A stretch of DNA of 64,000 nucleotides from Malacoraja senta. Lineage: Eukaryota. Shown here piece after piece: positions 181-60,593 of this stretch. The first letter of the stretch is position 1, and each line of letters opens with the position of its first letter. Position numbers and translations under genes: made by a program. The notes under the pieces were generated by a model that worked only from the letters and a program-made list of their open reading frames with translations, searched no databases and had not been told where the DNA came from. The DNA is taken from assembly GCA_038087875.1 (NCBI GenBank), contig CM075987.1, positions 26,352,001 to 26,416,000 of the forward strand, given 5' to 3'.

Positions 181-796
181 CTCACTCTTGACATGGATCC
201 AGAGATCTCCATACTCCAAAATGAGTCTGAAGGAGGGTCTCGACCCGAAACGTCACACATTCCTTCTCTCCAGAGATGCTGCCTGTTACTCCAGCATTTT
301 GTGTCTATCATCGGTGTAAACCAGCATCTGCAGTTCCTTTCCACACATCTCCAAATATACCACTAATAGAGTAAAGACACAAAACGATAGTGGCTTGCGA
401 GATTACCTAATTGTCGGGCAGTTTTAATATCACCATGTCTAAATGGTGTGGATCAATGGCAAATAGATTGTTCAGTACTTCTGCAGCATTTACCACATGC
501 TGTGCTGCAAATGGAGGATGTGGGATGATATATTAATCGGCTCTCAGCTTTCAATTAGTTTCAGAACAATTAGAAAATGTTTGCACAGCACATCAGTGTA
601 TCGGCAGCCAAGCAGCAAGTTAGACAACGTCAGGGCTTTTTCGACAAACAAGAAATTACCGGCACACAACTTTCACCTCTGTCTCGCTTTCCTCCTCCAA
701 TCCCATATCTCTTAACATTTAAGAATCCAGACGATTCTTTCATGCAGATGCATGAAGCCAGCAGATCTGAACGGGTTTCTGAAGAAGGGTCTGAAA

Positions 797-1176
797 CATA
801 TAAGAATGTTAAGTGCTTGGACACGCTAGAGGCAGGAAACATGTTCCCAATGTTGGGGGAGACCAGAACCAGGGGCCACAGTTTAAGAATAAGGAGTAAG
901 CCATTTAGAACGGAGAAGAGGAAACACTTTTTTCTCACAGAGAGTGGTGAGTCTGTGGAATTCTCTGCCTCAGAGGGCAGTGGAGGCAGGTTCACTGGAT
1001 GCTTTCAAGTGAGAGCTAGATAGGGCTCTTAAAAATAGCGGAGTCAGGGGATATGGGGAGAAGGCAGGAACGGGGTACTGATTGGGGATAATGATCAGCC
1101 ATGATCACATTGAATGGCGGTGCTGGCTTGAAGGGCCGAATGGCCTACTCCTGCACCTATTGTCTATTGTCTATTG
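797..1176 (+). mobile_element. CR1-clade (HER1-like) LINE 3' end
   Basis: YKNVKCLDTLEAGNMFPMLGETRTRGHSLRIR CR1 ORF2 C-terminal motif followed by the 3' UTR and a (CTATTGT)n tail. Confidence 0.9.
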
Positions 1177-1294
1177 ACCCGAAACGTCACCCATTCCTTC
1201 TCCCCAGAGATGCTGCCTGTCCCACTGAGTTACTCCAGCTTTTTGAGTGTCTACCTTCAGATTAAACCAGCATCTGCAATTCCTTCCTACACGT

Positions 1295-2505: not shown

Positions 2506-2515
2506 TGGTGGAGAC

Positions 2516-2730: not shown

Positions 2731-2858
2731 CTGTAGACAACCTACATTACATGGTGATGGTGTCTCGGTGTGGGCAAGTGGGGCCGAAGGGCCTGTTTGT
2801 AAACACGCTGTATCACTGTTTCAAAAGAGATAGCCTAATAAAAAGAAGTGATGGGATA

Positions 2859-8980: not shown

Positions 8981-8982
8981 AG

Positions 8983-20655: not shown

Positions 20656-20710
20656 TCTCTATGTACCCTTATCCTTCCCATTTTATCACACAGGGGAACA
20701 GACTGATGTT

Positions 20711-20738
20711 CTGAAGAAGGGTTTCGGCCCGAAACGTT
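20711..20738 (+). ncRNA. Minimal type-I hammerhead ribozyme motif in a PLE-derived unit (20710-20835)
   Basis: CTGAAGA-A-GGGTT-TC-GGCCC-GAAA-CGTT; unit flanked by 13-bp TSD aacagactgatgt (20697-20709 / 20836-20848). Confidence 0.6.
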
Positions 20739-23700
20739 GCCTATTTCCTTCGCTCCATAGATGCTGCTGCACCCGCTGTGTTTCTCCAGCATTTTTGCCT
20801 ACCTTCGATTTTCCAGCATCTGCAGTTCCTTCTTAAACAGACTGATGTACTGACAGGAAGCAAACTACTGCCCAAACTACTAGAGGATAGAACAAACAAA
20901 CCAAAACAAATCTGCTGTTGAGAAGCTCTCCAGAGGACAATTTACGATACGATACGATAGAACTTTATTCATCCCAGGAGGGAAATTGTTCTGCTGACAG
21001 TCACAACACACAAGGTAGACGAAAACTTGAAACTAAAATTAAATTAAAGGTGAAAACAAAAAGATAAAGACAAGCGAATGTTGTCTGGCTGCCGAGTGCA
21101 CGGAGCCTTCACCGGAACGAATGGACAAACGAACACAGACTTATCCACTGGGCAGAAGATTCTAAACTAGAGCCCCCCCCACCCCCCACCACCACACCGG
21201 GGACCCCCTTTGTTCTCCCACTGTCCCCCCACGCTGGGACCTTAGTTGGTTAGTGGGTTATTGTCATTAAAAAACTATTTTGTTTTACTGTTGGCAACAT
21301 TTGTGCGTATTCACCTCCCAATTTACTAATGAATCTTTTGGAAACTCAGCATGAACTGATTATCACTGTTGCTCAGCAATAAGCAGGCAAATGGCATCCT
21401 TTCATTCAGCTACTTTAGTTTTAATTTAGATTAGAGATACAGAGCGGAAACAGGCCCTTCGTCCCGCCGTGTCCTCGCCCGCCCAGCGACCCCCGCACAC
21501 TAACATTATCCTACACACACACACACACACACGGGACAATTTACAATTTTATCGAAGCCAACTAACCAACAAACCTGCACGTCTTTGGTGTGTGGGGGGA
21601 AACCGGAGATCCCGGAGAAAACTCACGCAGGTCACGTGGAGAATGTCTATGCAGAACTGCAGATGCTGGTGTAAACCAAAGATAGACACAAAATGCTGGA
21701 GCAACTCAGCGGGACAGGCAGCATCTCTGGATAAAAGATATAGGTGACGTTTCGGGTCGAGACCCTTCCTCAGACCCGAGTTGTTGTTCTAGCTTTGAAG
21801 TCGTCTTGTTGAATCTCATTGTCTATAACTCATTTTCACCCAGGTCAATAGACAATAGACAATAGATGCAGGAGTAGGCCTTTTGGCCCTTCGAGCCAGC
21901 ACCGCCATTCAATGTGATCATGGCTAACAATAGTCTGTTTCCTTTATCATCATTATTTTTTGCCTATCCTTCATTCATTTTTGTTCTATATCTCTCGACA
22001 TCATCGTCCATATCTCTCCTCTCCCATTCCCCTGACTCTCAATCTGAAGAAGGGTCTCGACCCTTAAAACACCGCCTATTCCTTTTCTCCAGAGATGCTG
22101 CCTGACCCGCTGATTTTCGTGTCATCTTCACTTACACTTCACTAGAGCCTTATTTGATCATTTCGCCCTTTTCGTACTACAATCCCACTTCAGTTTTGAC
22201 TTTGCTGGTTGGTGCATCTACACATCCATTGAGTGGCAAAAACCAAACGTTACTTTTATTTAAGAAGGAACTGCAGATGCTGGAAAATCGAAGGTGGACA
22301 AAAATGCTGGAGAAACTCAGCGGGTGAGGCAGCATCTATGGAGCGAAGGAAATAGGCGACGTTTCGGCCCGAAACCCTTCAGGAGGGAAATTGGTAACGT
22401 TTCGGGCCGAAACCCGGAAGGGTTTCGTCCCGAAACGTTGCCTATTTCCTTCGCTCCATAGATGCTGCCCCAAGGGTTTCGGCCCGAAATGTTGCCTATT
22501 TCCTTCGCTCCATAGATGCTGCCTCACCCGCTGAGATGATGAGTGAGATCGTCGAAGCCGCTAATGTCCATCATTATTCATGCTGGGAACACGGCGCTAA
22601 TGATGTTAATTATATCCGCACAGACATGCATCCCTAATCTTCCCTTCTTTCATTTGTTGCCTATATGAATTACAATCGGATAAACAAGCTTTCACATTGC
22701 TTGGAAACAAATCAGAGCAAGGTGATTTGGGTGGAAAATATATGTTGCTCATTGATTCATTCAATACAAAGCTCCGTTGATGGTTTGTGAAAATATAATG
22801 GGGCAAAGGGGTGTACTGATATAAACATGGACTCAGACATCTACCGAAAGGTCTGTTTCTTTAATGAAAATGATTGGAAAAAAACCCTTGGAATTGTCCT
22901 TGTGTTTGCATCAGCTCACAACTATCACACAGTTGCCTCACCCGCTGAGTTTCACCGGCATTTTTGTACCCATTCCTTCTCTCCATAGATGCTGCCTCAC
23001 CCGCTGAGTTTCACCAGCATTGTTTTTCCAGCATCTGCAGTTAGAATCATAGAATCATAGAATCATAGAAAGTAGGTGCGAGAGCAGACCACCAGGTCCA
23101 TCGAGCCCGCACCGCCATTCGCTCATGGCTGAACACCAAACAAACACCCCTACCCACAAACAGTAGACACAAGACACAGAACACAAGACACTACCCTCCC
23201 CTTTATACCGCTATCACCCCTCTCCACCCCAAGAACCGCGTGATCTCCTGGGGGAGGCAAAAAAACGGATAAAAACCCAGGTCCAATTCGGGAAAAAAAT
23301 CCGGGAAATTCCTTCTTTCTTAAACAACTAGCACATCTATCACTCCAAACCCATCCACCACATTTTTTTCGTGGCCTACCATCTACCTCAATGGAGACCC
23401 TCGGACTATCTTTAATCGAACTTTATTCGACTTTATCTTGCACAAAACGCTACTCCCTTTATCAAGGACAAGTCGCATCCGGCCACTCCCTCTTCTCCAC
23501 TCTCCCATCGGGCAAGTGTGAAAACGCACACCTCCAGATTCAGGGACAGTTTCTTCCCAGCTGTTGTCCAGAACCAGGGGCCACACAGTTAAGAATAAGG
23601 AGTGAGCCATTTAGAACGGAGACGAGGAAACACGTTTTCTCACAGAGAGTGGTGAGTCTGTGGAATTCTCTGCCTCACAGGGCGGTGGAGGCCGGTTCTC

Positions 23701-33346: not shown

Positions 33347-33886
33347 AACGCTACACTTGTCGCTTTACCTCCCCCCCCTCGACTCCATCCAAGGACCCAA
33401 GCAGTCTTTCCAGGTGAGGCAGAGGTTCACCTGCACCTCCTCCAACCTCATCTATTGCATCCGCTGTTCTAGGTGTCAGCTGCTCTACATCGGTGAGACC
33501 AAGCGCAGGCTTGGCGATCGCTTTGCCCAACACCTCCACACAGTGTGCATTAACGAGCCCGATCTCCCGGTGGCTCAGCACTTCAACTCCCCCTCCCATT
33601 CTGTATCCAACCTTTCTGTCCTGGGCCTCCTCCATGGCCAGAGTGAGGCCCACTGCAAATTGGAGGAGCAGCACCTCATATTTTGCTTGGGTGGTTTACA
33701 CCCCAGCGCTATGAACATTGACTTCTCCAATTTCAGGTAGTCCTTGCTTTCTCCCTCCTTCCCCTCCCCTTCCCAGCTCTCCCACAGCCCACTGTCTCCG
33801 CCTCTTCCTTTCTTCTTCCCGCCCCCCCCCCTCCCACCCCCACATCAGTCTGAAGAAGGGTCTCGACCCGAAACGTCGCCTATTTC
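33347..33886 (+). mobile_element. Penelope-like element 3' fragment with GIY-YIG endonuclease domain
   Basis: FTCTSSNLIYCIRCSRCQLLYIGETKRRLGDRFAQH...VAQHFN...EQHLIFCLGGLHPSAMN is a GIY-YIG signature; 12-bp TSD caccctatctac (33335-33346 / 33887-33898). Confidence 0.92.
33850..33877 (+). ncRNA. Minimal hammerhead ribozyme motif 110 bp downstream of the PLE GIY-YIG ORF
   Basis: CTGAAGA-A-GGGTC-TC-GACCC-GAAA-CGTC: complete catalytic-core nucleotides, 5-bp stem II, palindromic ACGT stem III. Stem I is weak. Confidence 0.65.
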
Positions 33887-36689
33887 CACCCTATCTACTC
33901 CAAAGTCTGAGCTGTTCAAAAGCCGTCTTCTGGAAAAGCATTTGAAAGCAGCAAAGGGCTGAAGGGTCAGAGAGAGACTTGGAATTGTTAAGCAACTTTC
34001 ACAGTTGTCAGATGTCCCAAACTGTATTGCCATCAAAGATAGACACAACAAGCTGGAGTAACTCAGCGGGTCAGACAGCATCTCTGGAGATAAAGGAACA
34101 GGTGATGTTTTGGGTCAAGACCCTTCTTCAGACAATCAAGTGTTGTGAAGTGGATAAGTTAGCTGTCAGAAAACCTCTGCCAACCTAGTTGCCAGCAAAC
34201 CCAAATGATAATATGATTACAACCAAATAAATCATACAGTGATATGAATTATCCCGCACCTCATGTTTCGCTTGGGCAGCTTACAACTCAGCGGCATGAG
34301 TAACGACTTCTCTAACTTCACTTAACCCTTGCATTCCCTCTCTCTCCATCCCTCCCCCACCTTAGTCCTCTCGCTAATTTCACCGTTTGTATTCATTCGT
34401 TATCACCTCGTCCCCAACCAACAATGGAGCATTGTGGGCTCCACCCTTCTGGAGTCATTGGTGCGGGTTCTGCTTTGTCCTGTACCTTCCCATACCTCTA
34501 GTTTCCCCCTCCACTGACTCTCAGCCCGATGAAAGGGTCTTGACCCAAAACGTCGCCCATTCCTTTCCTCCAGAGATACCGCCTGGCTCGTTGAGCTACT
34601 CCAGGCACTTTGTGCCTATCTTCGGTGTAAACCAGCATCTGCAGTTCCTTCTTACACAAATCATACAGTGATTTTGGTGGAGGGATAAATGTTGGCTTGG
34701 GCAGAATAAAGCATGTCCCTGTAAATTTCCCAATTCACCAGCCTGAAAAGGCTCAGTCTGAAGAAGGGTTTCGGCCCGAAACGTTGCCTATTTCCTTCGC
34801 TCCATAGATGCTGCCTCACCCGCTGAGTTTCTCCAGCACTTTTGTCCACCAAGTCATCTGGTACATTAGTTTGAAAAGGATTTATACTTGGGTTTTACAA
34901 GGATCTACATTTCACACTGCCTCAGCAAGGCCACCAGCATAATCAAGGAGCAGTCTCATGGAGATACAGAAACTTGTAAACGCATACCTCCAGATTCTGG
35001 AAGAATTTCTTCCCAGCTGTTATCAGGCAATGGAACAGTTCCCTCGCCAGCTAGAGAGCTCTCCTGACCTCCCATCTACCTTACTAGACACCTTTGAACC
35101 ATCTTTAATCACACTTCATCCTACATGTTTAATGTCTTAAATGTTGTATCCTTCGTTCTTTATCTGTGCACTGTGGACGGCTCGATTGTATCCATGGACA
35201 TTTCTTTTCTTGTGGCTGCCAAGTGTCTTTTCAATGTCGAAAGGTAGACACAAAATGCTGGAGTAACTCAGCGGAACAGGCAGCATCTCTGCAGAGGAGG
35301 AATGGGTGACCTTTCGGGTCGGGTGACCCGATCCAGACTGAGAGTCGAGGGAGAGGGAGACACAGAGATAAGGAAGGGTAAGGTGTGAAATCGAGACATC
35401 AAAGGAGATGAGACCAAGGAAATTGTAGAACAGATCATTGGTAGCTAGGAGAAGGTGACAACGAAGCATGCAGAGATAAAAAATTAATCAGGGGATCAGT
35501 CAGACTGGTTGGACAACTGGGAAGGAAGAGAGATGGGGAGAGAGGGAAAGCAAGGTAATGTTGTTATAGTGCCTGCCTCAACTACCTCAATTAGCTCATT
35601 CTATATACCCATCACCATCTGTGTGAAAATTTTGCCCCTCAGGTTCCCAGTAAATCATTCCCCTCTCACCTCTGGTTCTTGACTCCCCTAGCATATTTAT
35701 TCTCCTTTTATACACCGCTGTAAGATCACCCCTCACCCTTCTGCGCTCCATGGATTAAAGTCCTAGCCTGCCCAATCTCTCTTTTTCTAGCCCAGGGCCT
35801 CAATGTCTGGCAACATCCTCGTAAATCTTCCCTGCACCATGCCCAGCTTAATAACATCCTTGCTACAGCAGGGTGGCCAAAACTGAACACAATACTTCAA
35901 ATGCGGCCTCACCAACCTCTCGTACAACTGCAACAAGACGATTAACATTTGGAATAAAAGAATGGCAAGAACTGACGCAAGAATGAATCATTTAGCCACA
36001 CTTCCATGTTCATCCATTCAATGAGACCACGCAAGATTTACTGCCCTAACCTTTTCCATAGCTATCTCTCTGGAACTAACTCTGTTCCATAACTATCAAA
36101 ATATCTCCCATTGAATAACATTACAGACGATGCCCAATTTGACATTCATGTCTACTACTCAAATATATATCTCTCTATAAGATCAACTCCTCACCCTTCT
36201 GCAGTCCTAACCTACCCAATCTCCCTTTATAGGTCAGGCCCTCAAGATGGGGAGAAGGCAGGAGAATGGGATTAGGAGGGAGAGATAAATCAGCCATGAA
36301 TGAATGGCGGAGTAGACCTGATGGGCCGAATGGCCCGATTTTGCTCTTATCGCATGATCTTATGAAAACGTCACCTATCCATGTTCTCCAGGGGTGCTGC
36401 CAGACCCCGCTGGATTACTCCAGCACTTTGTGTCTTTTTATTTTGTAAACCAGCACCTGCAGTTTCTTGTTTCTGCTCTCTGTTTTAGGAGCAGGGAGGG
36501 AAGTGGAGGAAATAAAATAATTGACTGTGTAGGAAGGAACTGCAGATGCTGGTTTAAACTGAAGATAGACACAAAACGCTGGAGTTACTCAGCGGGACAG
36601 GCAGCATCTCTGGGTTGAAGGAATGGGTGACATTTCGGGTCGAGACCCTACTTCAGACTGGTCTTCAGTCTTCTTCTTTCTTAACATCC

Positions 36690-41730: not shown

Positions 41731-42871
41731 TCAACAGAGTTTGGTGGTGAGCAGGTCGGCCCGCTTGAGGACCTCGGAGTTGTAGATGTCCAGGGCGTGG
41801 TTGATCCTCATCACCTCGCTGCTGTTGAGCTTCAGCCGATGCTTGAGCATACAGGAGAAGAGGTCCAGCTGGGATTTGCCCGTGGCCACTGGTGGGGCCA
41901 GCCGGTTGATACGCTCCCGGATGTCCAGGAGCAGCAGCATGACGGAGGACGAGGAGTGGAAGGGGCTGCCCTGGGCGTACGACTGGTTGACCTGCTGCAC
42001 CACGCTGCGCAGGAGGTCCGTGTTGAAGCGCAGGCTGTAGCCGTAAACCTGCACGTCCGAGATCTTGATGTAGATCTGCCGCTTGCTGGGGTCGGACAGG
42101 TCCACCGGCCCCTGGGCCGTCTCGTTGCGCAGGGCCGCCGGCAGCTTGGCGCGGGTCCGCAGATAGACGTGGACGGTCTCGAACACCGTCTTCCAGCGGT
42201 TGCCCAGCAGCAGGGTCCAGTTGTGGCAGGGAGAGTCGCGCAGTCTCGTTTTCTCCCAGCTGGGGTAGCCGTACTCGCCGATCGGCGTGTTCCACCCCTC
42301 CGAGTGGCTGCCGCTGAAGGGGTTAATGTAAACAAAAAACACCGGGTCCAGGCTGCTGTTCCTCATCTGGCAGATCTTCATGGACAGGCCCACCACCATG
42401 TGGATGAAGTCCACCCGGTTCTTGTTGCTCTTCAGCGTCAGGGACATGCGCTTCCTCCAGCGCGGGTCGAAGAAGGTGTCCAGCCTGATCTCGTTGCTGA
42501 TGAACATGGTCTGGATGGACAACCTGGAGTCCTTCTTGGCCAGGAGGTAGTTCAGCTCCAGGTCGTGGAAGTCCAGCTCCGTCTCGAAGCTGACGAACTG
42601 CTCGCTGCGCTCCGAGTCCACGTTCTGCGGCTCGCAGCGGCCGCGGTACAGCTTGTAGCCCCGGTTACACGACCCGCACAGGGAGATGTTGGCCAGGCTG
42701 CACATGGCGCAGCTGCTGTTGCTGCCGATGTTGCAGGGGATGGCTCGCTGACACACGCTGGCCACCGCGTGGCACACGCACGTCTTCTGGCTCTCCAGGA
42801 AGGTGCCCCAGTAACCGTTCTCGCTGCAGTACAAAAATGACTGGACCCGATTCAACCACTGGTGCACGGAC
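41731..42871 (-). CDS. BRINP1: BRINP1 last coding exon (C-terminal ~380 codons, ends ...ADLLTTKLC*)
   Basis: Translation ([28 protein letters not shown]...[24 protein letters not shown]...[15 protein letters not shown]) closely matches vertebrate BRINP1 as recalled. Acceptor ttttctgtccctgcAG|G at 42873-42872; TGA at 41733-41731; phase joins the preceding exon (AG|G=Arg). Confidence 0.97.
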
Positions 42872-42916
42872 CTGCAGGGACAGAAAACATCGACGTCAAC
42901 ATCTTGCATCTGACTT

Positions 42917-43930
42917 AGAGTCACAGAGTCACAGAGTCACAGAGTCACAGAGACACAGAGACACAGAGACAGAGACACAGAGACAGAGTCAGTGTCACAG
43001 AGTCACAGAGTCACAGAGACACAGAGACACAGAGACACAGAGACACAGAGACAGAGACACAGAGACAGAGTCAGTGTCACAGAGTCACAGAGTCACAGAG
43101 TCACGGAGTCACAGAGATACAGAGTCACAGAGACACAGTCACAGAGTCACAGTGTCACAGAGTCACAGAGTCACAGAGATACAGAGTCACAGAGACACAG
43201 TCACAGAGTCACAGTGTCACAGAGTCACAGAGTCACAGTCACAGAGTCACAGTGTCACAGAGTCACAGAGTCACAGAGTCACAGAGACACAGAGTCACAG
43301 AGACACAGAGTCACAGTGTCACAGAGTCACAGAGTCACAGAGACACAGAGACACAGAGTCACAGTCACAGAGTCACAGTGTCACAGAGTCACAGAGTCAC
43401 AGAGTCACAGAGACACAGAGACACAGAGTCACAGAGACACAGAGACACAGAGTCACAGAGACACAGAGTCACAGTGTCACAGAGTCACAGAGTCACAGAG
43501 ACACAGAGATACAGAGACACAGAGTCACAGAGACACAGAGACACAGTCACAGAGACACAGAGTCAGAGACACAGAGTCACAGTCACAGAGACACAGAGAC
43601 ACAGAGACACAGAGACACAGAGACACAGAGACAGAGTCACAGAGTCACAGAGACACAGAGTCACAGTGTCACAGAGTCAGTGTCACAGTCACAGAGTCAC
43701 AGAGACACAGTCACAGAGTCACAGAGACACAGAGACACAGAGACACAGAGACAGAGACACAGAGACACAGAGACACAGAGACACAGAGACACAGAGATAC
43801 AGAGACAGAGACACAGAGACACAGAGAGACAGAGACACAGAGACACAGAGACACAGAGTCACAGAGACACAGAGACACAGAGACACAGAGACACAGAGAC
43901 ACAGAGATACAGAGACATAGAGTCATAGAA
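42917..43930. repeat. Octamer satellite (CACAGAGT/CACAGAGA)n, ~1 kb, in the last BRINP1 intron
   Basis: Direct reading; grades into the CATAGAAA tail of a minus-strand CR1 end at ~43915-44090. Confidence 0.97.
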
Positions 43931-45911: not shown

Positions 45912-46789
45912 TAAACCTTCTCCTTCTTAATCTCAAATTGCCCTTGCATATATTAGCATTCATAAGCATGAACAATGAACAATTGTGTAAGAAAGAACTG
46001 CAGATGCTGGTTTAAATCGAAGGTAGACACAAAATGCTGGAGTAACTCAGCGGGTGAGGCAGCGTCTCTGGAGGGAAGGAATGGGCGACGTTTCGGGTCG
46101 AGACCCTTCTTCAGACTGAAGAAGGAACAATGACAAATTAATCTATATATTACATTCCCTCTCCCTCCTCCCTTGTCCCCATGAAAGCATCTTCTCTACA
46201 TCGAAATAAATTGGGATATAGTACTGAATCCAAACTTGTGCAGATGGTGAGTGAATTCTATCTCCAGCATCAAGGCACAGTCAATAAAGTTATTGTGGCA
46301 TTAATAATAGATTTATTAATGAAACCACTGGCTTTTGACCTCCACCGCAAGCAGTGAATAAAGCGAATGGCATGTTGGCCTTTATAACAAGAGGAATCGA
46401 ATATAGGAGCAAAGAGGTCCCTCTGCAGTTGTACAGAGCCCTAGTGAGACCACACCTGGAGTATTGTGTGCAGTTTTGGTCCCGATGTTGGGGGTGTCCA
46501 GAACCAGGGGTCACAGTTTCAGAATAAGGGTAGGCCATTTACGACTGAGATGAGGAAAAACCTTTTTTACCCAGAGAGTTGTGAAACTGTGGAATTAACT
46601 GCCACAGGAGGCCAATTCACTGGATGTATTCAAGAGTTGGATATAGTTCTGAGGGCTAATGGGAAATGGGGAGAAAGCAGGAACGGGGTACTGATTGGGG
46701 ATGATCAGCCATGATCACATTGAATGGCGGTGCTGGCTCGAAGGGCCAAGTGGCCTACTCCTGCACCTATTGTCTATTGTCTATTGTCC

Positions 46790-48816: not shown

Positions 48817-50054
48817 TCAGGCAACCAAAAATCACCATTGTCTATTTCATTTGAAGATAGACACAAAAAAGCTGGAGTAACTCAGCGGGAGAGGCAGCAT
48901 CTCTGGAGAGAAGGAAATGGGTGATGTTTCGGGTCGAGATCCTTCTTCAGACTCGGGCCTGTCAACTCTATCCAAGTCTCTCGTTTCCCTCTACCCTGAC
49001 TCTCAGTCTGAAGAAGGGTCCCGACCGGAAACATTGCCTATTCCTTCTCTCCAGGGATGCTGTCTGTCCCGCCGAGTTACTCCAGATTGTTGTGTCTATC
49101 TTCAAATGAAATGGACAATGGTTGTCACCAAATCAGTTTTTTTTTCCTCACATTTGTAAGTACAGGAAGTCTGAAGATTGGTCTCGACCCGAAACGTCAC
49201 CTATTCCTTCGCTCCATAGATGCCGCCTCGCCCGCTGAGTTTCTCCAGCATCAAGTACAGGGAAGTCCTTTCACATTTTTAATTGAAAATGAAACTGGAT
49301 GTTTCATCATTAATAGATTACAGAGCGTTCAACGTTCTGGAAATCTCTGGAAATGATGAGCTATTTACTGCCTCCTGATGCGTGGTGCCATCATGATGGA
49401 TTCCAGGTCTAAGAAGCATTACAAGATGGACACTGTGTTTAAGAAGGAACTGCAGATGCAGGAAAAATCAAAGGTAGACAAAAATGCTGGAGAAACTCAG
49501 CGGGTGAGGCAGCATCTATGGAGCGAAGGAAAGGATGATGTTTCGGGTCGAGACCCTACTTCAGGCTGGTCTTCAGGTTTCTTCTTTCTTAACATCCCCC
49601 CCAACCCCATGACAAAAGGGGGAGGAGGAGTTGTCCAGTTTGATAGCCACAGGGAAGAAGGATCTCCTGTGGCGTTCTGTGCTGCATCTTGGTGGAACCA
49701 GTCTGTTGCTGAAGCAGCTCCTCAGATTGACCAGTGTGTCATGGAGGGGGTGAGCTGTATTGTCCAGGATGCTCCGCAGTTTGAGGAGCATCCTCCCCTC
49801 CAAGACCAACCTCCCGTGAATCCAACTCCACCCCCAGGACAGAGCCGGCCTTCCTGATGAGCTTGTTGAGTGGGATGTTAAGAAAGAAGAAGTCTGAAGA
49901 CCAGTGTGAAGAAGGGTCTCGACACGAAACGTCACCCTTTCCTTCGCTCCATAGATGCCGCCTCGCCCACTGAGTTTCTCCACCACAAGATGGAGAATGA
50001 TGACTGTGATAGAACAAGCCACTGGGCTCCCGACTGAGATTTTGCCGATCTTAC

Positions 50055-50277
50055 CTTTCTCGGGGCATTTGGTGGTTGGGGTTGTGTCGGCAATGGATGC
50101 TGAGACTGAAGAGCTTGCGGGCAGTACGCTGGATCTTCAACTTCAGCAGCTCCACTGTGCCCAGAAGCATCTTGTACCGTGCCTGGAGATCCCAGTCATT
50201 GCCCCAGTGCTGGTGGACACTGCCCATGGTCAGGAAATGAGTGGTGGGTAACCGCTTCAAGAATGACTTGAATTCAT
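50055..50277 (-). CDS. BRINP1: BRINP1 penultimate coding exon (223 bp; [35 protein letters not shown]...[13 protein letters not shown])
   Basis: Matches BRINP1 DEFKSFMKRLP...[11 protein letters not shown]...RHNPNHQLPRER. Acceptor ccattccttgcAG|AT at 50279-50278; donor AG|GTAAGA at 50054-50053; phases consistent with both neighbouring exons. Confidence 0.96.
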
Positions 50278-52375
50278 CTGCAAGGAATGGAGATATGTTC
50301 GTATTAGAAATGTCAGGCACATAGATGAAGAGCAATGGGACAAACCTTTGTCCAACTAATGTTTGCCAAGCATCCATTTACCCCAATCCTGCCCTCAGGA
50401 TCAACAAACTCACCAGGAAGGCCGGCTCCATCCTGGGGGGCGGAGTTGGAGTTGGATTCACCGGAGGTTGGTCTTGGAGGGGAGGATGCTCCTCAAACTG
50501 CGGAGCATCCTGGACAATACAGCTCACCCCCTCCGTGACGCACTGGTCATCCTGAGGAGTACCTTCAGCAACAGACTGGTTCCACCAAGATGCAGCACAG
50601 AACGCCACAGGAGATCCTTCTTCCCTGTGGCTATCAAACTGGACAACTCCTCCCCCTTCTGTCGTGGGGTAGACTGAGACTGACTCACCACCCCCCCCCC
50701 CCCCCCAATCTTTGCACATCCCCAATCCTTTCCACTTTAATTTAATGTTTCATGTATTTTGTGTTTTTTATGAATGTTGGCAGATCAATTTCCCTCCTGG
50801 GATAAATAAAGTTCTATGGTATCGTATCCCAGGTTAGTCTATTGTCATGTGTACCGAGGTACAGTGAAAAGCTTTTGTAGCGTGCTAACCAGCCCGCGGA
50901 AAAACAACACCTGTTATCATTTCCCTCACCGACTCGCGAAAAGCAACTTACAGTCAGCAATTAACCCACCAACCTGCAGATTATTAGTTTAGTTTCAGAG
51001 ATACAGCGCAGTAACAGGCCCTTCGGCCCAGCGAGTCCGTGCCGGCCAGCGATCCCCGCACACTAACACTATCCTACACGCACGAGGGACAATTTACAAT
51101 TTTTTACCAAAGCTAAATTATCTTACAAACCTGCACGTCTTTTGAGAGTGGGAGGAAGCCAGAGCACCCGGAGAAAACCCACGCGGTCACGGGGAGAACG
51201 TACAAACTCCGTACAGACAGCACCCGTAGTCGGGATATGAACCCGGGTCTCTGGCGCTGTGAGGCAGCAACTCTACCGCTGCGCCACCGCGCCGAGCAAC
51301 GTCTTCTGCCCCCTCCTCCATTGAAACATATAAGATTGTTAAGGGTTTGGACACGCTAAAGGCAGGAAACATGGTCCCGATGTTGGGGGAGTCCAGAAAC
51401 AGGGGCCACAGTTTAAGAATAAGGGGTAAGCCATTTAGAACGGAGACGAGGAAACACTTTTTCTCACAGAGGAGTGGTGAGTCTGTGGAATTCTCTGGTG
51501 GAGGCCGGTTCTCTGGATGCTTTCAAGAGATAGGGCTCTTAAAAATCAGGGGATATGGGGAGAAGGCAGGAACGGGGTACTGATTGGGATGATCAGCCAT
51601 GATCACATAGAATGGCGGTGTTGGTTCGAAGGGCCTATTGTCTATTGTCTATTGTCTATTGTCTCACCTCATTCTAGGTTCACAAAATGATACGACTGTA
51701 TCGCCGGCCTTTGCTGACGCATTCATAATTCTATTTATAATTCGGCCTGCATGGTAGGCGGGCGAGATGGGAAAACATTCAGGACAGAGTTATGGCTCTC
51801 ATTTCATTTCCGTCGTGCTTAAGGCTATGGTAAATCATGTCATCAGCACCGATAATTTATTGCCGTTCCACACCGATGTAACTGCGGCATTAACTCACTC
51901 GGAAGAACCACGGCCCCTGATTCTGCTGAAGTGACCTGAGGTGCAGTCTCCTGTCAAATTCTAAACCGCTGAAGCCTTCACATCCACCGAATGTTATTTG
52001 AGCTCCTGCCGACAAGTTAACTGGAACCAGGGAGTTATGAAGAGCTTGTCTGATTTATAATCCCCCACATCCCTTCGCTTGAGCCAATTTCTTTTTTCTA
52101 CCTGAATTTCAGCAATTGCAAGGTAATAAATTCCAACGGACGTTTTTTTATTTTTTATTATCGTGTCCACTTAATAACAGTGTTGTATCACCGGAATAGA
52201 GTGTACGTCATCATCAGTTTTTTTCTTTTAAGAAGGAACGACAGATGCGGGAAAATCGAAGGAAGACAAAAATTGCTGGAGAAACTCAGCGGGTGAGGCG
52301 GCATCTATGGGAGCGAAGGAAATAGGCAACGTTTCGGGTCACCCGAAACGTTGCCTATTTCCTTCGCTCCATAGA

Positions 52376-55089: not shown

Positions 55090-55193
55090 CTGCAAGAGTG
55101 GAATGAAAGAAAAAAGACAATTGTTTTGCTCTGTTGTCACTGGAATATAAATGAACATCACCTTTGCCGAGGAAGGCCCTGCAGAAGAACTGT

Positions 55194-55283
55194 CTGAAGA
55201 AGGGTCTCGACCCGAAACATGTGTCTGAAGAAGGGTCTCGATCTGAAACGTGTGTCTGAAGAAGGGTCTCGACCCGAAACGTC
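55194..55283 (+). ncRNA. Three tandem (31-bp period) hammerhead-core copies at a PLE end
   Basis: CTGAAGAAGGGTCTCGA(C/T)C(C/T)GAAAC starts at 55194, 55225 and 55256; only the third copy keeps the GTC cleavage triplet. Confidence 0.6.
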
Positions 55284-55445
55284 ACCCATTCCTTTTCTAC
55301 AGAGATGCTGCCTGTCCCGCTGAGTTACTCCAACATTTTGTGTCTATCCAATGAACTGCAAATGCTGGTTTAAAACCAAAGATAGACACAAAACGCTGGA
55401 GTAACTCAGCGGGACAGGCAGCATCTCTGGAGAAAAGGAATAGGT

Positions 55446-55473
55446 GACGTTTCGGGTCGAGACCCTTCTTCAG
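55446..55473 (-). ncRNA. Minimal hammerhead motif, sense to the BRINP1 pre-mRNA (other intact intronic minus-strand copies at 46087-46114 and 58436-58463)
   Basis: Reverse complement reads CTGAAGA-A-GGGTC-TC-GACCC-GAAA-CGTC. Confidence 0.6.
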
Positions 55474-56327
55474 ACTGAGACCTGACTCTCTGTCAGAAGA
55501 AGGGTCCCGACCCGAAACCTCACCTATTCCTTTTCTCCAGAGATGCTGCCTGTCCCGTTGTGTTACTCCAGCTTTACATGTCTATCTTCAGAACATTGCC
55601 TTCATCAAGCTGAAAACAATATATCAGCTAGTTAGAGACGAGAGAGCCTGGGACTAGAGGTCAGAGCCTCAGAATTGGAAGAACGTTTCTTTGGGAAGGA
55701 GATGAGAGGTAATTTCTTTAGTCAATCTGTGGAATTCATTGCCACAGAAGGCTGTGGAGGCCAAGTCAATGGATATTTTTAAGGCAGACATGGACAGATT
55801 CTTGATTAGTGTGGGTGTCAAGAGTTATAGGGAGAAGGCGGGAGAATGGGGTTAGGAGGCAGAGATAGATCAGCCATGATTGACTGGCGGGTAGACTTGA
55901 TGGGCCGAATGGCCTAATTTTGCTCCTGTCACTTGTGAATTCATGACCTTAACACTTGGGTTCTTCAAGATAATTTAGCTCCCCCCAAAACATCAAATAT
56001 TTTAGAAATAAGTTGATTTTGACATAAAGTTCTGGAGTAACTCAGTGGGTCAGTTCAGTTTATTGTCACGTGTACCAAGTTACAGTAAAAAGCTTTTGTT
56101 GCGTGCTAACCAGTCAGCAGAAAGACAATACATGATCACAAATGAGCCATACACAGTGTTTAGATACATGATAAGGGAATAACGTTTAATTCAAGCTAAA
56201 GCCAGTAAACAAAGAAACATAGAAAATAGGTCTAGCAGTAGGCCATTCGGCCCTTCAAGCCAGCGCCGATCATCCAAATCAGTAACCCGTTCCTGCTTTT
56301 TCCCCATGTTTTATGTGTCATTCCTAA

Positions 56328-56651: not shown

Positions 56652-58372
56652 TAACTGTCACTGTATGTCATGTTATCACTTGCGGGCGGAGCAACAAGGC
56701 AAATTCCTTGTATGTGAATACTTGGCCAATAAACCTATTCATTCATTCATTCACTCATTCATTCATATCTCTTGATTCCGTTAGCCCTAAGAGTTAAATC
56801 TAACTCTCTCTTGAAAACATCCAGTAAAGCCAGGGTCAGGCTGGATCTCTGGGAGAACATGGATAGGTGACGTTTAGATACCTCTAAAAAATCACCTCTC
56901 ATCTTTCTGTGCTCCAAGTAAATAGAGTCTGATCCTGCTCCACCTCAGGTCCTCGAGTCCTGGCAACATCTTCATGAACCTTCTCTCTAGCATTTCCTGC
57001 TTGACATCCTTGCTATTACAATCTTTCCTATATTATCCCTTATATAGTTTCATGGTCAACTGGAATGAGTTCACAACTTCACAAATTCTAGGGACAGAAT
57101 TAGGCCATTCGGCCCATCAAGTCTACTGTGCCCTTCAATCGTGGCTGATCTATCTTTCCCTCTCAACCCCATTCTCCCCGTATCCCCTGACACCCGTACT
57201 AATTTCAATTTCCCTCCTGGGATAAATAAAGTCAGATTGTATAATATTGTATCGTAATCAAGAATCTGGCAATCTCCGCCTTAAAAATATCCATTGGCTT
57301 GGCCTCCACAGCCTTCTGTGGCAAAGAATTCCACAGATTCACCACCCTCTGACTAAAGAAATTCCTCCTCGTCTCCTTCCTAAAGGTATGAGTCCGTTGA
57401 AAGTATTGATCCAGTGAAGAAGGGTCTCGACCCGAAACGTCACCCATTCCTTCTCTCCAGAGATGCTGCCTGGCCCGCTGAGTTACTCCAGCTTTTTTGT
57501 GATTTAGATACAGCAGTTAAAGCGATGCAGGATGACATTGTAAATGGATGAGAACAAATGGCTGAAGGGCTAAACTATCTACTTATATCTCTTGATATAA
57601 AAAAAACAAAAGAGCTAATCGTGAATGACAGCGTTATCAAGTCGAAGTAGCAAAAGAGAATGTTGATCCATGGAGCTGATATCCTCAGATAGAAATTGAT
57701 CCAATTAATACTCGTGGAAAAAAGGGATCACACTAGGAACATTATCAGAAACAATCAGAGAAACATAACTAAGACAGGGGTTGACATCTTAGCTTTAGGA
57801 TACCATGTTGCTCTTGTTCTCAGTTTAGTAGGTGAGCGATTTATTCACATTCAGGATGTACTTGATTTGGCACTTGTCCTCAGTCAATTTAGTTTAGATT
57901 AGTTGAGAGATACAGCGAGGAAACAGGCCCTTCGGCCCACAGAGTCCATGCTGACCAGCGATCCTCGCACTTTAACGCTACCCTACACACACTAGGGACA
58001 ATTTACATTCACACCAAACCAATTAGCCTGCAGACGTGGAGGTGGGGAGGAAACCGGAGATCCTGGAGAAAACCCATGCTGTCACGGGGAGAACGTGCAA
58101 ACTCTACACAGACAGCGCCCCTAGTCAGGATCGAACTGGGGTATCTGGCGTTGGAAGGCAGCAGCTCTACCGCTGCGCCACCGTGCTGCCTTGAGAAAAG
58201 GGGACTTAAAATGCAATTAGCTGTTGGGGGGCCAGGCTGAATGAGCTCCTTCAGGGGCACATCGGTCTCCAATGCCAGTCCTCAGTGAGAGGGTCGCACA
58301 ATGCAGTCAGACTATGCCTCTCCCATCTCCCATACAGGAATGCTGCTGTTTAGCACAAAAACCAATTGTAGC

Positions 58373-58765
58373 TACACAAAAATGCTGGAGAAACTCAGCA
58401 GGTGCAGCAGCATCTATGGAGCGAAGGAAATAGGTAACGTTTCGGGCCGAAACCCTTCTTCAGACTGATAGGGGGTGGGGAGAAGAAAGGAAAAAAGGAA
58501 AAAAGGCGGAGGAGGAGCCCGAGGGCTGGGGGAGGGGAGGAGACAACCAGATGGCTGATGAAGGGGAGGGGACAGCAAAGGCTAGCAGAGTTGGGAGAAT
58601 TCAATGTTCAAGCCCCCAGGATGTAGACTGCCCAAGCGGAATATGAGGTGCATTTCCTCCAATTTCCGGTGTTGCTCGCTGTGGCCATGGAGGAGACCCA
58701 GGACAGAGAGGTCAGATACGGAATGGGAGCCGTCTCTACCAATATAAGCCGTCTCTACCGTCTCT
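58373..58765 (-). mobile_element. Penelope-like element 3' fragment (GIY-YIG C-terminus plus hammerhead tail)
   Basis: SHSVSDLSVLGLLHGHSEQHRKLEEMHLIFRLGSLHPGGLNIEFS; 12-bp TSD accaattgtagc (58361-58372 / 58766-58777). Confidence 0.88.
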
Positions 58766-60593
58766 ACCAATTGTAGCCATCTCTAGGGCAGGCCAGCCAG
58801 CATGATCCATAACCACAACTATCTGCATATGGACACAAAATGCTGGAGTAACTCAGCGGGTCAGGCAGCACCTCTTATAATATACACCTCCATAAAATCA
58901 CCCGTCATCCTCCTATGCTCTAAGGGAATCAAGTCCTAGCTTGGCCAATCTCGCCCTACAGCTAGGGACCATCAAGCCCTAGCAACAGCCTCACTGTCTG
59001 AAGAAGGGTCTCGACCCGAAACATCAAGCTATTCATTTTCTCCAGAGATGCTGCCTGACCCGCTGAGTTTGAAGAAGGGTCTCGACCCGAAACATCAGCT
59101 ATTCATTTTCTCCAGAGATGCTGCCTGACCCGCTGAGTTACTCCAGCGTCCAGCATTTTGTGTCTAGCATCCTCGTAAATCTTGATTAAACTGTTTATAA
59201 TTAACTGAGGAATTGTTTCCACCGCCCAATACAGAACAGGAAAAAAAAGAATCTTTACAAGCAACCTCTGGCTGAATGGTAAAAATTTATGTAACTTAAG
59301 GTGCAGTGGTAGAGTTGCTGCCTCACAGCGCCAGAGACCCGGGTTCGATCCTGACTACGGGTGCTGTCTGTACGGAGTTTGTACGCTCTCCCCGTGACCT
59401 GCGTGGGTTTTCTCCGGGTGCCCCGGTTTCCTCCCACGCTCCAAAGACGCGCAAGTTTGAGGTTTACTTGGCCTCTGTGGGATGCAAGCAGAAGCCTCCA
59501 CGTGGGGCATCCCGGGCAATGCTGACCACAGGAACTGCACCACAGTGACTGACTGAAGTAGCCAATTCTGCAACCACCGACCGTCAACCGTCACCACTGA
59601 CCGACCGGAAAGACGTGGCATAGAAGATGGCCGGACACGAGGAAGAAGAAGTGTTAAAGAAGGAACTGCAGATGCTGGAAAATCGAAAGTACACAAAAAT
59701 GCTGGAGAAACTCAGCGGGTGCAGCAGCATCTATGGAACGAAGGAAATAGGCAACGTTTCGGGCCCGAAACCCTTCTGGAAATAGGCAACGTTTCGGGCC
59801 GAAACCCTTCCGGGTTTCGGACCCGAAACGTTGCCTATTTCCTTCGCTCCATAGATGCTGCTGCACCCGCTGAGTTTCTCCAGCATTTTTGTGTACCTAC
59901 GAGGAAGAAGAACTTGGCCTCTGTAAAATTGTCCCCAGTGTGTAGGATCGAACTAGTGTACAGGTGATTGCTGGTCGGCGTGGACTCGGTGGGCCGAAGG
60001 GCCTGTTTCCAGGCTGTACCACTAAAACTACCACTCCAGTTTTATCCCCCGGCACATTTCGTTGGAATTGATTTAAGCGGCAGAAACAGAATGCTCAGTA
60101 AACAGCATAAAATGCTGCAAAGTAGTTCAGTTTCAAACCACATCATCGATAGTTACGCCAATTTCTGCAGCATTTCTCGGCTCTCCGGAGGCTGGATAAT
60201 CTGAAAATAGATTAGGTCTTGCAAAAATGCTGAAAAATCACCTAAGGGACTGATAATGTGGAGGTCCTGCTTCCACGGACTGAGCCCTTAATGCTCGGTG
60301 AGAGAAAGACTCTGGCTATAATTGGATACGAGTGTAGTGATTAGTGTAGGACTTCACACTACAGGGAAACACAGCACTCAGCATAATAGGGGTGGGAAGG
60401 GATTCAAATCCAGCTATCAGGCACAATGCCCCTGTTACTTCTCGTAGACTTAATGTCAGTTTCTTGCTAACTGTGCAACTATTGCCTCATGGAGACCTCC
60501 CAGACTATGGTACTGCGAGCGATTGTTTTGAAGAAAAAGGGGAACACAGAGAAGGCTGAATGAACCAGCCTTATAAAGGCCATTGGGGATCAT

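What the first reader, a model, noticed from the sequence alone, without database searches (positions are those of the whole stretch)
227..59900. Window-wide population of minimal hammerhead-ribozyme motifs carried by Penelope-like element ends
Seen: well over 20 intact or degenerate copies of CTGAAGA-A-[GGGTC TC GACCC or GGGTT TC GGCCC]-GAAA-CGT(C/T) on both strands (e.g. 20711, 33850, 34758, 55256 on +; 46087-46114, 55446-55473, 58436-58463 on -). Two copies lie directly 3' of GIY-YIG ORFs. The two subfamilies differ in stem II but keep pairing (G-C versus G-U wobble). Established: this matches the hammerhead core (C3UGANGA9...G12AAA...UH17); minimal type-I hammerheads with a palindromic stem III are known from PLE termini, and an extra nucleotide after A9 is tolerated in natural hammerheads. 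Inference: this genome holds a very large reservoir of potentially self-cleaving RNA motifs, some of them sense within BRINP1 introns. Caveat: stem I is only about 2 canonical bp as read here.
Basis: partly seen in the sequence, partly recalled or inferred. Interest (0 to 1): 0.7.

Follow-up and report, generated by a model that had tools for sequence, protein, structure and literature searches.

The report
Penelope-element hammerhead motifs, hugely amplified
The window is peppered with short retrotransposon tails that each begin with a minimal hammerhead-ribozyme motif of the kind already known from Penelope-like elements; the motif is real and extremely abundant in this vertebrate genome, but whether it cuts RNA is not shown.

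Summary
CTGAAGA-N13-GAAA occurs 16 times against 0.08 expected. The 24-nt motif occurs 37 times at up to 5 substitutions, 20 on + and 17 on -. Genome-wide it occurs 267,440 times at up to 3 mismatches, against 1 for the reversed control.

The carrier is a Penelope-like element (PLE). A relative has a 572-codon frame with RVT_1 plus GIY-YIG. The motif lies about 110-120 nt after the ORF stop, in tandem, partial-tandem and head-to-head copies.

The motif fits the published PLE minimal hammerhead: extra base after A9, a G10.1-C11.1 pair, a palindromic CG before U-H, and no helix III.

Catalysis is unsupported:
- Helix I is only 2 bp.
- No Rfam hammerhead model matches.
- The hammerhead fold is 6-10 kcal/mol above the predicted optimum.
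- There is no covariation.
- Only 9 of 37 window copies keep every core feature.

About half of 200 listed copies are 95- or 130-nt mini-units. They start about 3 nt before the core and end at two sites about 35 nt apart, the PLE "tail" signature.

Verdict: a new member of a known kind, with unusual copy number.

The parts
33348..33887 (+). 5'-truncated Penelope-like element fragment. It holds the GIY-YIG end of the ORF (frame 33330-33737), a C-rich 3' UTR and the hammerhead motif. It ends 10 nt after the GUC site and is flanked by an 11-bp duplication, ACCCTATCTAC.
   Evidence: Pfam GIY-YIG match; sequence read; translation.
33850..33877 (+). Intact minimal hammerhead motif: CUGAAGA, extra A, a 4-5 bp helix II, GAAA, CG, UC.
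58364..58728 (-). PLE C-terminal ORF piece (58728-58594), then a 3' UTR, an intact motif of the younger stem-II type (58463-58436), and a tail ending at about +100.
   Evidence: tblastn E 1e-16; sequence; profile hit.
34257..34655 (+). Older PLE 3' end: the last ORF residues, a 3' UTR of about 210 nt, a degenerate motif near 34533, then the full tail in its long form.
20708..20837 (+). Solo 130-nt mini-unit with an intact motif at 20711, flanked by a 13-bp duplication, AACAGACTGATGT.
45987..46117 (-). Solo long mini-unit with an intact motif (46114-46087). It lies in sense orientation in the intron between the two BRINP-family exons.
55191..55591 (.). Compound locus. Three tandem 31-nt copies of the segment from the unit's 5' end to the predicted cleavage site are followed by a unit on +, then a unit on - (tail to tail, 32 nt between them), then a unit on + (head to head, 6 nt between them).
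48847..49110 (.). Head-to-head pair of units (48952-48847 on -, 49006-49110 on +). Their outer flanks are also inverted repeats.
32412..32841 (.). Head-to-head pair (32479-32412 on -, 32711-32841 on +). Each unit is preceded by PLE 3' UTR sequence.
58996..59171 (+). Two tandem copies of the first 70 nt of the unit, followed by the rest of the unit.
41734..42936 (-). Last large coding exon of a BRINP-family gene. This is context only, not part of the element.
   Evidence: Pfam BRINP match, E 8.7e-139.
50054..50377 (-). Upstream BRINP-family exon (context only).
   Evidence: Pfam BRINP match, E 6.1e-18.

Best explanation
The motif is the minimal type-I hammerhead (HHR) that Penelope-like elements carry in their terminal repeat.

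Architecture of this family: a single RT plus GIY-YIG ORF, then about 110-120 nt of C-rich 3' UTR, then the motif. Reverse transcription appears to start about 65 and about 100 nt beyond the predicted cleavage site.

The motif has no helix III of its own. Its A-CG-U palindrome could form helix III only between two copies. Cleavage after GUC or GUU, if it happens, would therefore need a dimer and probably the element's own protein.

Shown here: the sequence anatomy, the link to PLEs, the copy number, and the positions of the element ends.

Inferred: homology to the published PLE hammerheads (I put this at about 0.9), and actual self-cleavage in vivo (about 0.4).

Also inferred: the very many 95- and 130-nt copies are cDNAs of the first part of transcripts that start about 3 nt before the core, inside the upstream repeat. 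Reverse transcription would enter these at the first internal start site.
For: PLE identity:
- A related copy has a 572-codon open frame with RVT_1 and GIY-YIG.
- The window's GIY-YIG frame has 95,675 first-look relatives in the genome. All 150 that were scored have E of 7e-68 or better.
- Fetched loci show tandem arrays with a period of 3867-3918 nt, partial-plus-full tandems, and head-to-head pairs. In each, the motif lies about 120 nt after the stop and about 104 nt before the next open frame.

Fit to the published class (text and supplement of PMC4209133, read):
- an extra base between A9 and G10.1;
- a G10.1-C11.1 pair;
- a palindromic 15.2/16.2;
- the same CUGAAGAA ... GAAA-CG-UC boxes as listed for pufferfish, frog, snake and cnidarian PLEs.

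Element ends:
- 3' ends fall in two classes. In 15 sampled copies, 8 end at +93-96 and 4 at +129-132.
- The profile end positions of 91 hits cluster at 95-106 and 125-132.
- This mirrors the optional 30-40-nt 'tail' between two internal RT start sites shown for the anole PLE. There the HHR cut site also lies about 85-92 nt upstream of the RT start (PMC11167929, passages read).
- That paper also reports priming on both DNA strands, which fits the inverted pairs seen here.

Discrete 5' end:
- In two listings of 100 copies each, tallied by eye, 31 and 31 have unique flanks beginning within 6 nt of CTGA.
- In the same listings, 12 and 20 abut an inverted or tandem partner at that point.
- 15 of 15 sampled unique-flank copies are short units, and at least 5 have 7-12-bp target duplications.

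Subfamily differences inside the motif fall only on helix-II positions that keep pairing, on H17 (C or U) and on N1.1.
Against: - No Rfam hammerhead model matches at the gathering score, nor at E up to 10 in the whole window, nor in a 471-nt stretch holding six copies.
- Helix I is 2 bp at most in 36 of 37 copies. The published search descriptor asks for at least 3 bp.
- Predicted energies disfavour the fold. The hammerhead-like monomer is -4.2 kcal/mol against an MFE of -10.0. A dimer with helices II and III is -12.7 against -23.1. The preferred structure pairs GAAGAAGGG with the downstream CCCAUUCCUUC.
- Covariation on 41 copies is no better than shuffles: 0.137 against 0.128, with 93 of 500 shuffles at least as high.
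- Core positions are not clearly better conserved than the rest of the unit.
- 28 of 37 window copies have at least one core-breaking change, mostly at CpG sites.
- The published minimal PLE hammerheads cleave poorly in vitro.
- In the anole element, HHR mutants did not affect insertion in vitro, and no RNA-seq reads ended at the cut site.
Confidence: 0.8

Rival explanations
1. The motif descends from a PLE hammerhead but no longer cuts RNA. It is kept in the master copies for another job. It could be the first transcribed bases next to the start site, or part of the RNA that the element's RT/EN protein binds before internal initiation.
For: - Helix I is 2 bp.
- The predicted fold disfavours the hammerhead by 6-10 kcal/mol.
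- No Rfam match was found and no covariation.
- Published minimal PLE hammerheads have low activity.
- Anole HHR mutants insert normally in vitro.
- The motif sits exactly at the discrete 5' end of the mini-units.
Against: - All 11 essential core bases are identical in both subfamilies, and the subfamily changes keep helix II paired.
- The same core is kept in PLEs from cnidarians to vertebrates. That is hard to explain without selection on the ribozyme fold.
- The anole HHR does cleave when its protein is present.
Confidence: 0.3
2. The short 95/130-nt copies are solo terminal repeats left behind by recombination between the two repeats of full elements. They are not cDNAs of short 5'-terminal RNA segments.
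For: - They carry target duplications, which solo repeats also would.
- Tandem and partial-tandem elements that could recombine are common.
Against: - In the fetched partial-plus-full tandems the upstream repeat is preceded by ORF sequence, not by a flank at the AGT boundary. Recombination there would leave a truncated element, not a unit starting at AGT.
- The two fetched single full-length copies start inside or beyond the unit, not at AGT.
- Perfect head-to-head palindromes centred on the same boundary fit a cDNA end better.
Confidence: 0.15
3. The conserved strand is the other one. On this reading the repeat is the 3' tail of a LINE/SINE pair ending in ...TCTTCAGAC with a stem-loop, and the hammerhead resemblance is accidental.
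For: - Upstream of CTGAAGA the sequence is unrelated in many copies, while the other side is conserved. At first sight that looks like a common 3' end read backwards.
Against: - The motif strand is the coding strand of the RT/GIY-YIG ORF in every fetched element.
- Copies truncated inside the unit lose the motif side and keep the far side: profile start positions are spread from 5 to 99, while ends cluster.
- The far end shows the two-site PLE tail signature.
Confidence: 0.02

Closest known systems
Minimal hammerheads of metazoan Penelope-like elements (Cervera and De la Pena 2014, PMC4209133; main text and supplement file 2 read)
   Same: - The same boxes, CUGAAGA plus one extra base, a G-C pair closing helix II, and GAAA-CG-U-H.
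- No helix III, with a palindrome in its place.
- Location in the PLE terminal repeat.
- Most copies are solitary and spread through the genome.
   Different: - Helix II here is 4-5 bp, against mostly 5-8 bp.
- Helix I is 2 bp, against 3-5 bp in most listed members. Culex, Drosophila virilis and Oikopleura are also listed with 2 bp.
- No species with this sequence is in that alignment.
- Copy number here is 267,440 at up to 3 mismatches. That paper gives about 9,000 for Xenopus and about 4,000 for coelacanth, counted with a different method.
Poseidon element PAc of the green anole (Frangieh et al. 2024, PMC11167929; passages read)
   Same: - The HHR lies some 70-100 nt upstream of internal RT start sites.
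- An optional tail of about 30-40 nt lies between two start sites.
- Elements occur as tandem repeats.
- Both DNA strands can prime, which gives inverted copies.
   Different: - In PAc the HHR overlaps the ORF start. Here it lies about 104 nt before the next open frame and about 120 nt after the previous stop.
- RT start sites here are inferred from genomic ends only, not measured.
Drosophila virilis Penelope hammerhead (described in PMC4209133)
   Same: - Helix I is 2 bp.
- Copies are highly uniform in a family that looks recently active.
- An RNA-processing landmark sits at the 5' edge of helix I.
   Different: - In D. virilis the landmark is the 3' end of an intron, and there is a 2-nt palindromic insertion in helix III.
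- Here the landmark is a discrete element 5' end, and most unique-flank copies retain AGT, which a splice junction after CAG would not leave.
Non-LTR retrozymes of animals (Cervera and De la Pena 2020, PMC7229834, search listing only; Li et al. 2026 preprint 10.64898/2026.07.22.740005, abstract and passages read)
   Same: Both are non-autonomous, PLE-related sequences that carry type-I hammerheads.
   Different: - Retrozymes are tandem repeats of roughly 50-970 nt that give circular RNAs.
- The units here are dispersed single insertions with target duplications.
- The only tandems in the window are 31 nt x3 and 70 nt x2.
Schistosome Sm-alpha / Sj-alpha SINE-like elements with a hammerhead (as summarised in PMC6765202, passages read)
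   Same: A short, very abundant retroposon that carries a hammerhead.
   Different: - Those are described as a promoter followed by a canonical hammerhead.
- Here the hammerhead-like motif is the first thing in the unit, and no internal promoter was identified.

Membership tests
Hammerhead ribozyme, type I (canonical; Rfam hammerhead families) | Conserved core C3-U4-G5-A6-N7-G8-A9, G12-A13-A14, U16.1-H17 | tested here: met
   The full core is present in 9 of 37 window copies, and in the majority base at every core position of 91 profile hits.
Hammerhead ribozyme, type I (canonical; Rfam hammerhead families) | Three helices around the core within one molecule | tested here: not met
   Helix II is 4-5 bp. 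Helix I is 2 bp at most in 36 of 37 copies. Helix III is absent in cis, with only A-CG-U in its place.
Hammerhead ribozyme, type I (canonical; Rfam hammerhead families) | Match to a curated covariance model | tested here: not met
   No hammerhead family matched at the gathering score or at E up to 10, in the whole window or in a 471-nt stretch.
Hammerhead ribozyme, type I (canonical; Rfam hammerhead families) | Site-specific self-cleavage after H17 | not testable with these tools
   This needs transcription and cleavage assays. No run on record as RNA and no raw reads were available.
PLE minimal hammerhead (Cervera and De la Pena 2014) | Lies in the terminal repeat of an RT plus GIY-YIG element, on the sense strand | tested here: met
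PLE minimal hammerhead (Cervera and De la Pena 2014) | Extra nucleotide between A9 and G10.1, and a G10.1-C11.1 pair | tested here: met
   The extra A is kept in 96% of profile hits that cover it. The G-C pair is present in 30 of 37 window copies.
PLE minimal hammerhead (Cervera and De la Pena 2014) | Palindromic 15.2/16.2 in place of helix III | tested here: met
   CG is present in 20 of 37 window copies. The rest are mostly CA or TG, as expected from CpG decay.
PLE minimal hammerhead (Cervera and De la Pena 2014) | Helix I of at least 3 bp, as in the published RNAmotif descriptor | tested here: not met
   Only 1 of 37 copies reaches 3 bp; the descriptor was read. The published alignment itself lists members with 2 bp, so this does not exclude membership.
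PLE minimal hammerhead (Cervera and De la Pena 2014) | Compensatory changes in helices within consensus families | tested here: inconclusive
   41 copies give a covariation score of 0.137 against 0.128 in shuffles (93 of 500 at least as high). The copies are too alike, and mostly dead on arrival.
Penelope-like element | Single ORF with RT followed by a GIY-YIG endonuclease | tested here: met
   In L029:4547-6262, RVT_1 has E 1.7e-5 and GIY-YIG has E 8.7e-4. Both scores lie below the Pfam curated cut-offs. Open frames of 1224 codons occur in several loci.
Penelope-like element | Tandem or partial-tandem copies that create pseudo-LTRs, and inverted copies | tested here: met
   L035/L036 form a tandem array. 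L038 and L039 are partial-plus-full tandems. L041 and L042 are head-to-head pairs.
Penelope-like element | Optional 30-40-nt tail at the 3' end (two RT start sites) | tested here: met
   Two classes of end lie about 35 nt apart. They were compared with PMC11167929.
Non-LTR retrozyme | Tandem repeats, each unit with a complete hammerhead | tested here: not met
   Copies are dispersed. The window holds only one 31-nt x3 array and one 70-nt x2 array.

The most novel reading that the evidence does not exclude
The 95- and 130-nt units may be a distinct, SINE-like 'mini-Penelope'.

On this reading the unit is made of nothing but the transcript start, the hammerhead and the internal RT entry site. 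Transcripts start about 3 nt before the hammerhead core, at a conserved YCAGTC that resembles an initiator. That consensus is recalled, not tested here. The element's RT enters at the first internal start site and copies back to the RNA 5' end.

This mechanism would account for roughly 10^5 insertions.

A bolder corollary concerns the rare 31-nt tandem arrays. Their unit runs exactly from that 5' end to the scissile bond, as at 55191-55283. Genome-wide, 162 junctions lie within 8 nt of the site, and the commonest class ends at +28. These arrays could be genomic fossils of the 5' cleavage product being reused as a template, which would be indirect evidence that the ribozyme cuts in vivo.
Probability: 0.3. 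Interest if true: 0.6.

Novelty: new member of a known kind. Interest (0 to 1): 0.4.

Why it matters
Minimal hammerheads in Penelope-like elements have been known since 2014, so the class is not new.

What this genome adds:
- A family with about a quarter of a million motif copies.
- A subfamily whose copies are 99.3-99.5% alike and carry long open frames.
- Very clean element ends.

This makes it a convenient natural data set for two open questions about these elements. One is whether the minimal hammerhead cuts in vivo. The other is where PLE transcripts begin and where reverse transcription enters. Both could be read from 5'-end and cyclic-phosphate RNA mapping in this species.

For genome annotation, it explains a very common short repeat of 95-130 nt. 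It also warns that the many intronic sense copies are mostly mutated relics.

Tried and rejected
- **Rfam.** Scans at the gathering score, at E up to 10 on the whole window, and on 55150-55620 found no hammerhead, HDV-like or other ribozyme family. Only microRNA-hairpin models matched, on the inverted repeats.

- **Opposite-strand reading.** I considered that the repeat is a LINE/SINE 3' tail read backwards. I rejected it on ORF orientation and the truncation pattern.

- **HDV-like ribozyme.** I considered that such a ribozyme, cutting at its own 5' edge, explains the discrete 5' end. No Rfam support was found.

- **Splice acceptor.** I considered that a polypyrimidine tract plus CAG explains the boundary. 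It is less likely, because about half of the unique-flank copies retain AGT.

- **RNA evidence.** No RNA holder was listed among the sequencing runs, and all runs are kept as contigs. Laying four runs gave no information on starts or ends. Table 6 of that output was empty, and the kind of run was only a guess. It showed only that contigs break at the unit's 5' boundary and at the two 3' ends.

- **Covariation.** The count on 41 copies is not different from shuffles.

- **Target duplications.** An automated search found only 1 of 24, because many of those copies extend upstream and the offsets allowed were too strict. Duplications were then read by eye in a few copies.

- **Larger random sample.** A 40-kb sample was used instead, so genome-wide densities from the profile are rough.

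- **Segmental duplicates.** L030, L031 and L032 are duplicates of one locus (97.4-97.7% identical over 6.8-7.1 kb, flanks included). They could not be used to define element ends.

- **Literature.** The paper of Lunse, Weinberg and Breaker on dimeric PLE hammerheads is not held. It is cited only through the review PMC6765202. Searches turned up no paper describing this repeat, or PLE hammerheads at this copy number.

- **Earlier notes of this scan.** There were none for this genome or sequence.

Full report
**1. The observation**

The pattern CTGAAGA-N13-GAAA has 16 matches in the window. Dinucleotide shuffles give a mean of 0.08, and none of 100 shuffles reaches 16. Allowing up to 5 substitutions in the 24-mer gives 37 copies, 20 on + and 17 on -.

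A profile of the whole repeat unit finds 70 copies or fragments in the window. It finds 21 more in 40 kb of arbitrarily chosen genome, in 5 of 8 samples.

The window lies in a 1.94-Gb assembly. There the exact 28-mer occurs 18,728 times, with 0 for the reversed control. The 24-mer at up to 3 mismatches occurs 267,440 times, with 1 for the control. The window holds 33 such copies in 64 kb, about four times the genome average.

**2. What carries the motif**

The frame 33330-33737(+) ends in a GIY-YIG motif. The Pfam match has E 1.9e-4, just under the curated cut-off, and the frame translates to a typical PLE endonuclease tail. It is followed 112 nt later by the motif at 33850.

The fragment 33348-33887 is flanked by an 11-bp duplication.

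tblastn with this frame finds four more C-terminal pieces in the window:
- 58728-58594(-) is followed by the motif at 58463-58440.
- 34257-34319(+) is followed, after about 210 nt of 3' UTR, by a degenerate motif and a complete tail.
- The pieces at 19812-19729(-) and 16960-17001(+) have lost or never had the motif.

In the genome the same frame has 95,675 first-look candidates, and all 150 that were scored have E of 7e-68 or better. One relative has a 572-codon open frame with RVT_1 and GIY-YIG. This is the domain pair that defines Penelope-like elements, although both Pfam scores are below the curated cut-offs.

A younger subfamily has 1224-codon open frames in several loci, and its copies are 99.3-99.5% alike. 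It has the stem-II variant GGGTT..GGCCC and a GUU site. It shows the classic PLE layouts:
- a tandem array with spacings of 3867 to 3884 nt;
- partial-plus-full tandems with motif spacings of 3918 nt;
- head-to-head pairs.

In all of these the motif is on the coding strand. It lies about 120 nt after the stop and about 104 nt before the next open frame.

**3. Anatomy of the motif**

Read as RNA, the motif runs: (A)GU, CUGAAGA, A, GGGU-CUCG-ACCC, GAAA, CG, U, C or U, then ACC or GCC.
- This gives C3 to A9, one extra base, and a 4-bp helix II with a tetraloop (5 bp if the loop is read as 2 nt).
- It then gives G12-A13-A14-A15.1, a CG that makes A-CG-U palindromic, and U16.1-H17.
- Helix I can form only U-A (or U-G) and G-C. 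It is 2 bp in 17 of 37 copies, 3 bp in 1 and fewer in 19.
- Nine of 37 copies keep all core features. The other 28 have at least one core-breaking change, often CG to CA or TG as expected of CpG decay.

**4. Comparison with what is published**

Cervera and De la Pena (PMC4209133) describe minimal hammerheads in the terminal repeats of all PLEs they examined. I read the main text and supplement file 2.

Features that emerged in that work beyond the search descriptor are:
- a base between positions 9 and 10.1;
- a conserved G10.1-C11.1 pair;
- palindromic 15.2/16.2.

All three are present here.

Their structural alignment lists members with the very same boxes, for example pufferfish, frog and a snake with CUGAAGAA, G...C, GAAA, C G U C. 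It also lists members with a 2-bp helix I (Culex, Drosophila virilis, Oikopleura). Their RNAmotif descriptor, however, asks for helix I of 3-7 bp. It would therefore not have retrieved this family.

They report low activity in vitro even for dimers.

**5. The element ends**

In the motif orientation, copies end at two preferred places.
- Among 91 profile hits, ends cluster at model positions 95-106 and 125-132, with a scatter of shorter ones.
- Among 15 sampled copies of the young type, 8 end at +93-96, 2 at +100-105, 4 at +129-132 and 1 at +53.

Frangieh et al. (PMC11167929; passages read) showed the following for the anole element:
- Reverse transcription starts internally at two adjacent sites.
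- The optional 30-40-nt 'tail' of genomic PLE copies is the stretch between those sites.
- The hammerhead cut site lies 26 nt into the ORF and the RT start 111-118 nt into it, so the hammerhead is about 85-92 nt upstream of RT entry.
- Both DNA strands are cut and extended.

The same order and similar distances are seen here, as are many inverted pairs. A third, rarer end about 10 nt after the cleavage site is seen at 33887. It also appears in a few tandem junctions.

**6. A discrete 5' end**

I tallied by eye two listings of 100 copies, each with 18 nt of upstream sequence.

| Upstream context | Young type | Older type |
|---|---|---|
| Joined to PLE 3' UTR or a recurrent upstream sequence | 38 | about 49 (at least three 3' UTR types) |
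| In one 2-2.5-kb-period array | 19 | 0 |
| Abutting an inverted or tandem copy | 12 | 20 |
| Unique flank | 31 | 31 |

In the 31 unique-flank young copies, conservation falls off stepwise upstream of CTGA:
- T at -1 in 27;
- G at -2 in 22;
- A at -3 in 21, with AGT complete in 16;
- C at -4 in 9 of those 16.

The end is therefore slightly ragged, within about 6 nt.

All 15 unique-flank copies that I fetched are short units. None runs on into the ORF, and at least 5 have 7-12-bp target duplications. In the window, 16 of 39 copies that reach the unit's start have unique flanks there, and 10 more abut another copy (classified by eye).

Random 5' truncation of a 3.9-kb element cannot place half of all ends in a 6-nt interval.

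The simplest reading is an RNA 5' end at that point. PLE promoters and transcript starts are known to lie in the upstream terminal repeat (review PMC6765202, passages read). The conserved YCAGTC also resembles an initiator, though that consensus is recalled and was not tested.

RT entering at the first internal start site of such a transcript would copy only 95 or 130 nt. This step is inferred, not shown.

**7. Tests of the ribozyme reading**

- No Rfam hammerhead model matches, even in a 471-nt search at E up to 10.
- The hammerhead-like monomer is predicted at -4.2 kcal/mol, against -10.0 for the optimum. The optimum pairs GAAGAAGGG with the downstream CCCAUUCCUUC.
- A dimer with helices II and III is -12.7 kcal/mol against -23.1.
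- The whole young unit folds with z = -2.2. The fold is a panhandle between its first bases and its tail.
- Per-position conservation across 91 hits is high everywhere. Core positions (0.89-1.00 outside CpG) are not clearly above the rest of the unit.
- Positions that differ between subfamilies do avoid the 11 essential core bases. They fall on two helix-II positions that keep pairing, on H17 and on N1.1. With so few changes this is suggestive at best.
- A formal pair count on 41 copies shows no covariation: 0.137 against 0.128, with 93 of 500 shuffles as high.
- No run on record as RNA holds the sequence and only contigs were available. RNA ends could therefore not be examined.

**8. A possible trace of cleavage**

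At 55191-55283 three tandem 31-nt copies run from the unit's 5' end to the predicted scissile bond.

A genome search was made for a new motif starting 0-8 nt after ...GAAAC(G/A)T. It finds 162 junctions. In the 100 listed, tallied by eye, the commonest class (about 30) has a 4-nt gap. In that class the first copy ends at +28 and the next starts with AGT.

This is what reuse of the 31-nt 5' cleavage fragment as a template would give. Three points weaken it:
- The numbers are small.
- The +28 base is often G rather than C.
- The shared GTC at both places allows a microhomology explanation.

I regard it as a hint only.

**9. Verdict**

The motifs are PLE-borne minimal hammerheads, a known kind, in a genome where they reached an unusually high copy number. 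About half of the copies are short mini-units with sharply defined ends. Catalytic activity remains untested and is not favoured by any computation run here.

Noticed in passing
window 42917-43929: An 8-nt repeat, AGAGTCAC, in about 131 copies. It starts right beside the large BRINP-family exon (41734-42936, minus strand). All three frames are open across it.
   Followed up: partly
window 40712-41366: A long, impure TG-rich microsatellite downstream of the BRINP-family coding exon.
   Followed up: partly
G000:C1:3872230-4035069 (listing): A tandem array with spacings of about 2.0 to 2.5 kb. Each unit carries a young-type motif preceded by the same 18 nt, and 19 of the 100 listed copies lie in it. 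It looks like a satellite or segmental array built around one insertion.
   Followed up: no
L037-L042, L035-L036 and the listing: A PLE subfamily with many copies 99.3-99.5% alike and open frames of about 1224 codons, so it looks recently active. This is described only; no copy was singled out.
   Followed up: partly
window 33887; L048:2772-2946; G000:C1:3156876 and C1:660056: A third, rarer end or junction of the unit, about 10-14 nt after the predicted cleavage site. It is seen as an element 3' end and as the junction of short tandem copies.
   Followed up: partly
L038:2195-2325 and window 45987-46117: The first bases of the unit (UGAAGAAGG) are complementary to its last bases (CCUUCUU), which gives a predicted panhandle. 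In the young unit the fold has z = -2.2. This could matter for RT entry, or it could be chance.
   Followed up: no
window 40378-40460; G000:C1:1300564 and C1:3654337: In several head-to-head pairs the inverted partner is cut off at about its position +18, inside helix II. The recurrence suggests a preferred breakpoint or deletion at the helix-II palindrome.
   Followed up: no
window 36569-36659, 49540-49610, 49860-49905: Three copies share another upstream sequence ending ...AAGAAGAAGACTGAAGACC before AGT. Its origin was not identified; it could be another PLE 3' UTR type or a composite repeat.
   Followed up: no
window 32280-32335 and about 59240-59260: Fragments of a tRNA-derived SINE lie next to hammerhead units. 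They were recognised by eye only.
   Followed up: no
L030, L031, L032: Three loci on different contigs are 97.4-97.7% identical over 6.8-7.1 kb, flanks included. They are segmental duplicates or assembly redundancy, not independent insertions.
   Followed up: partly
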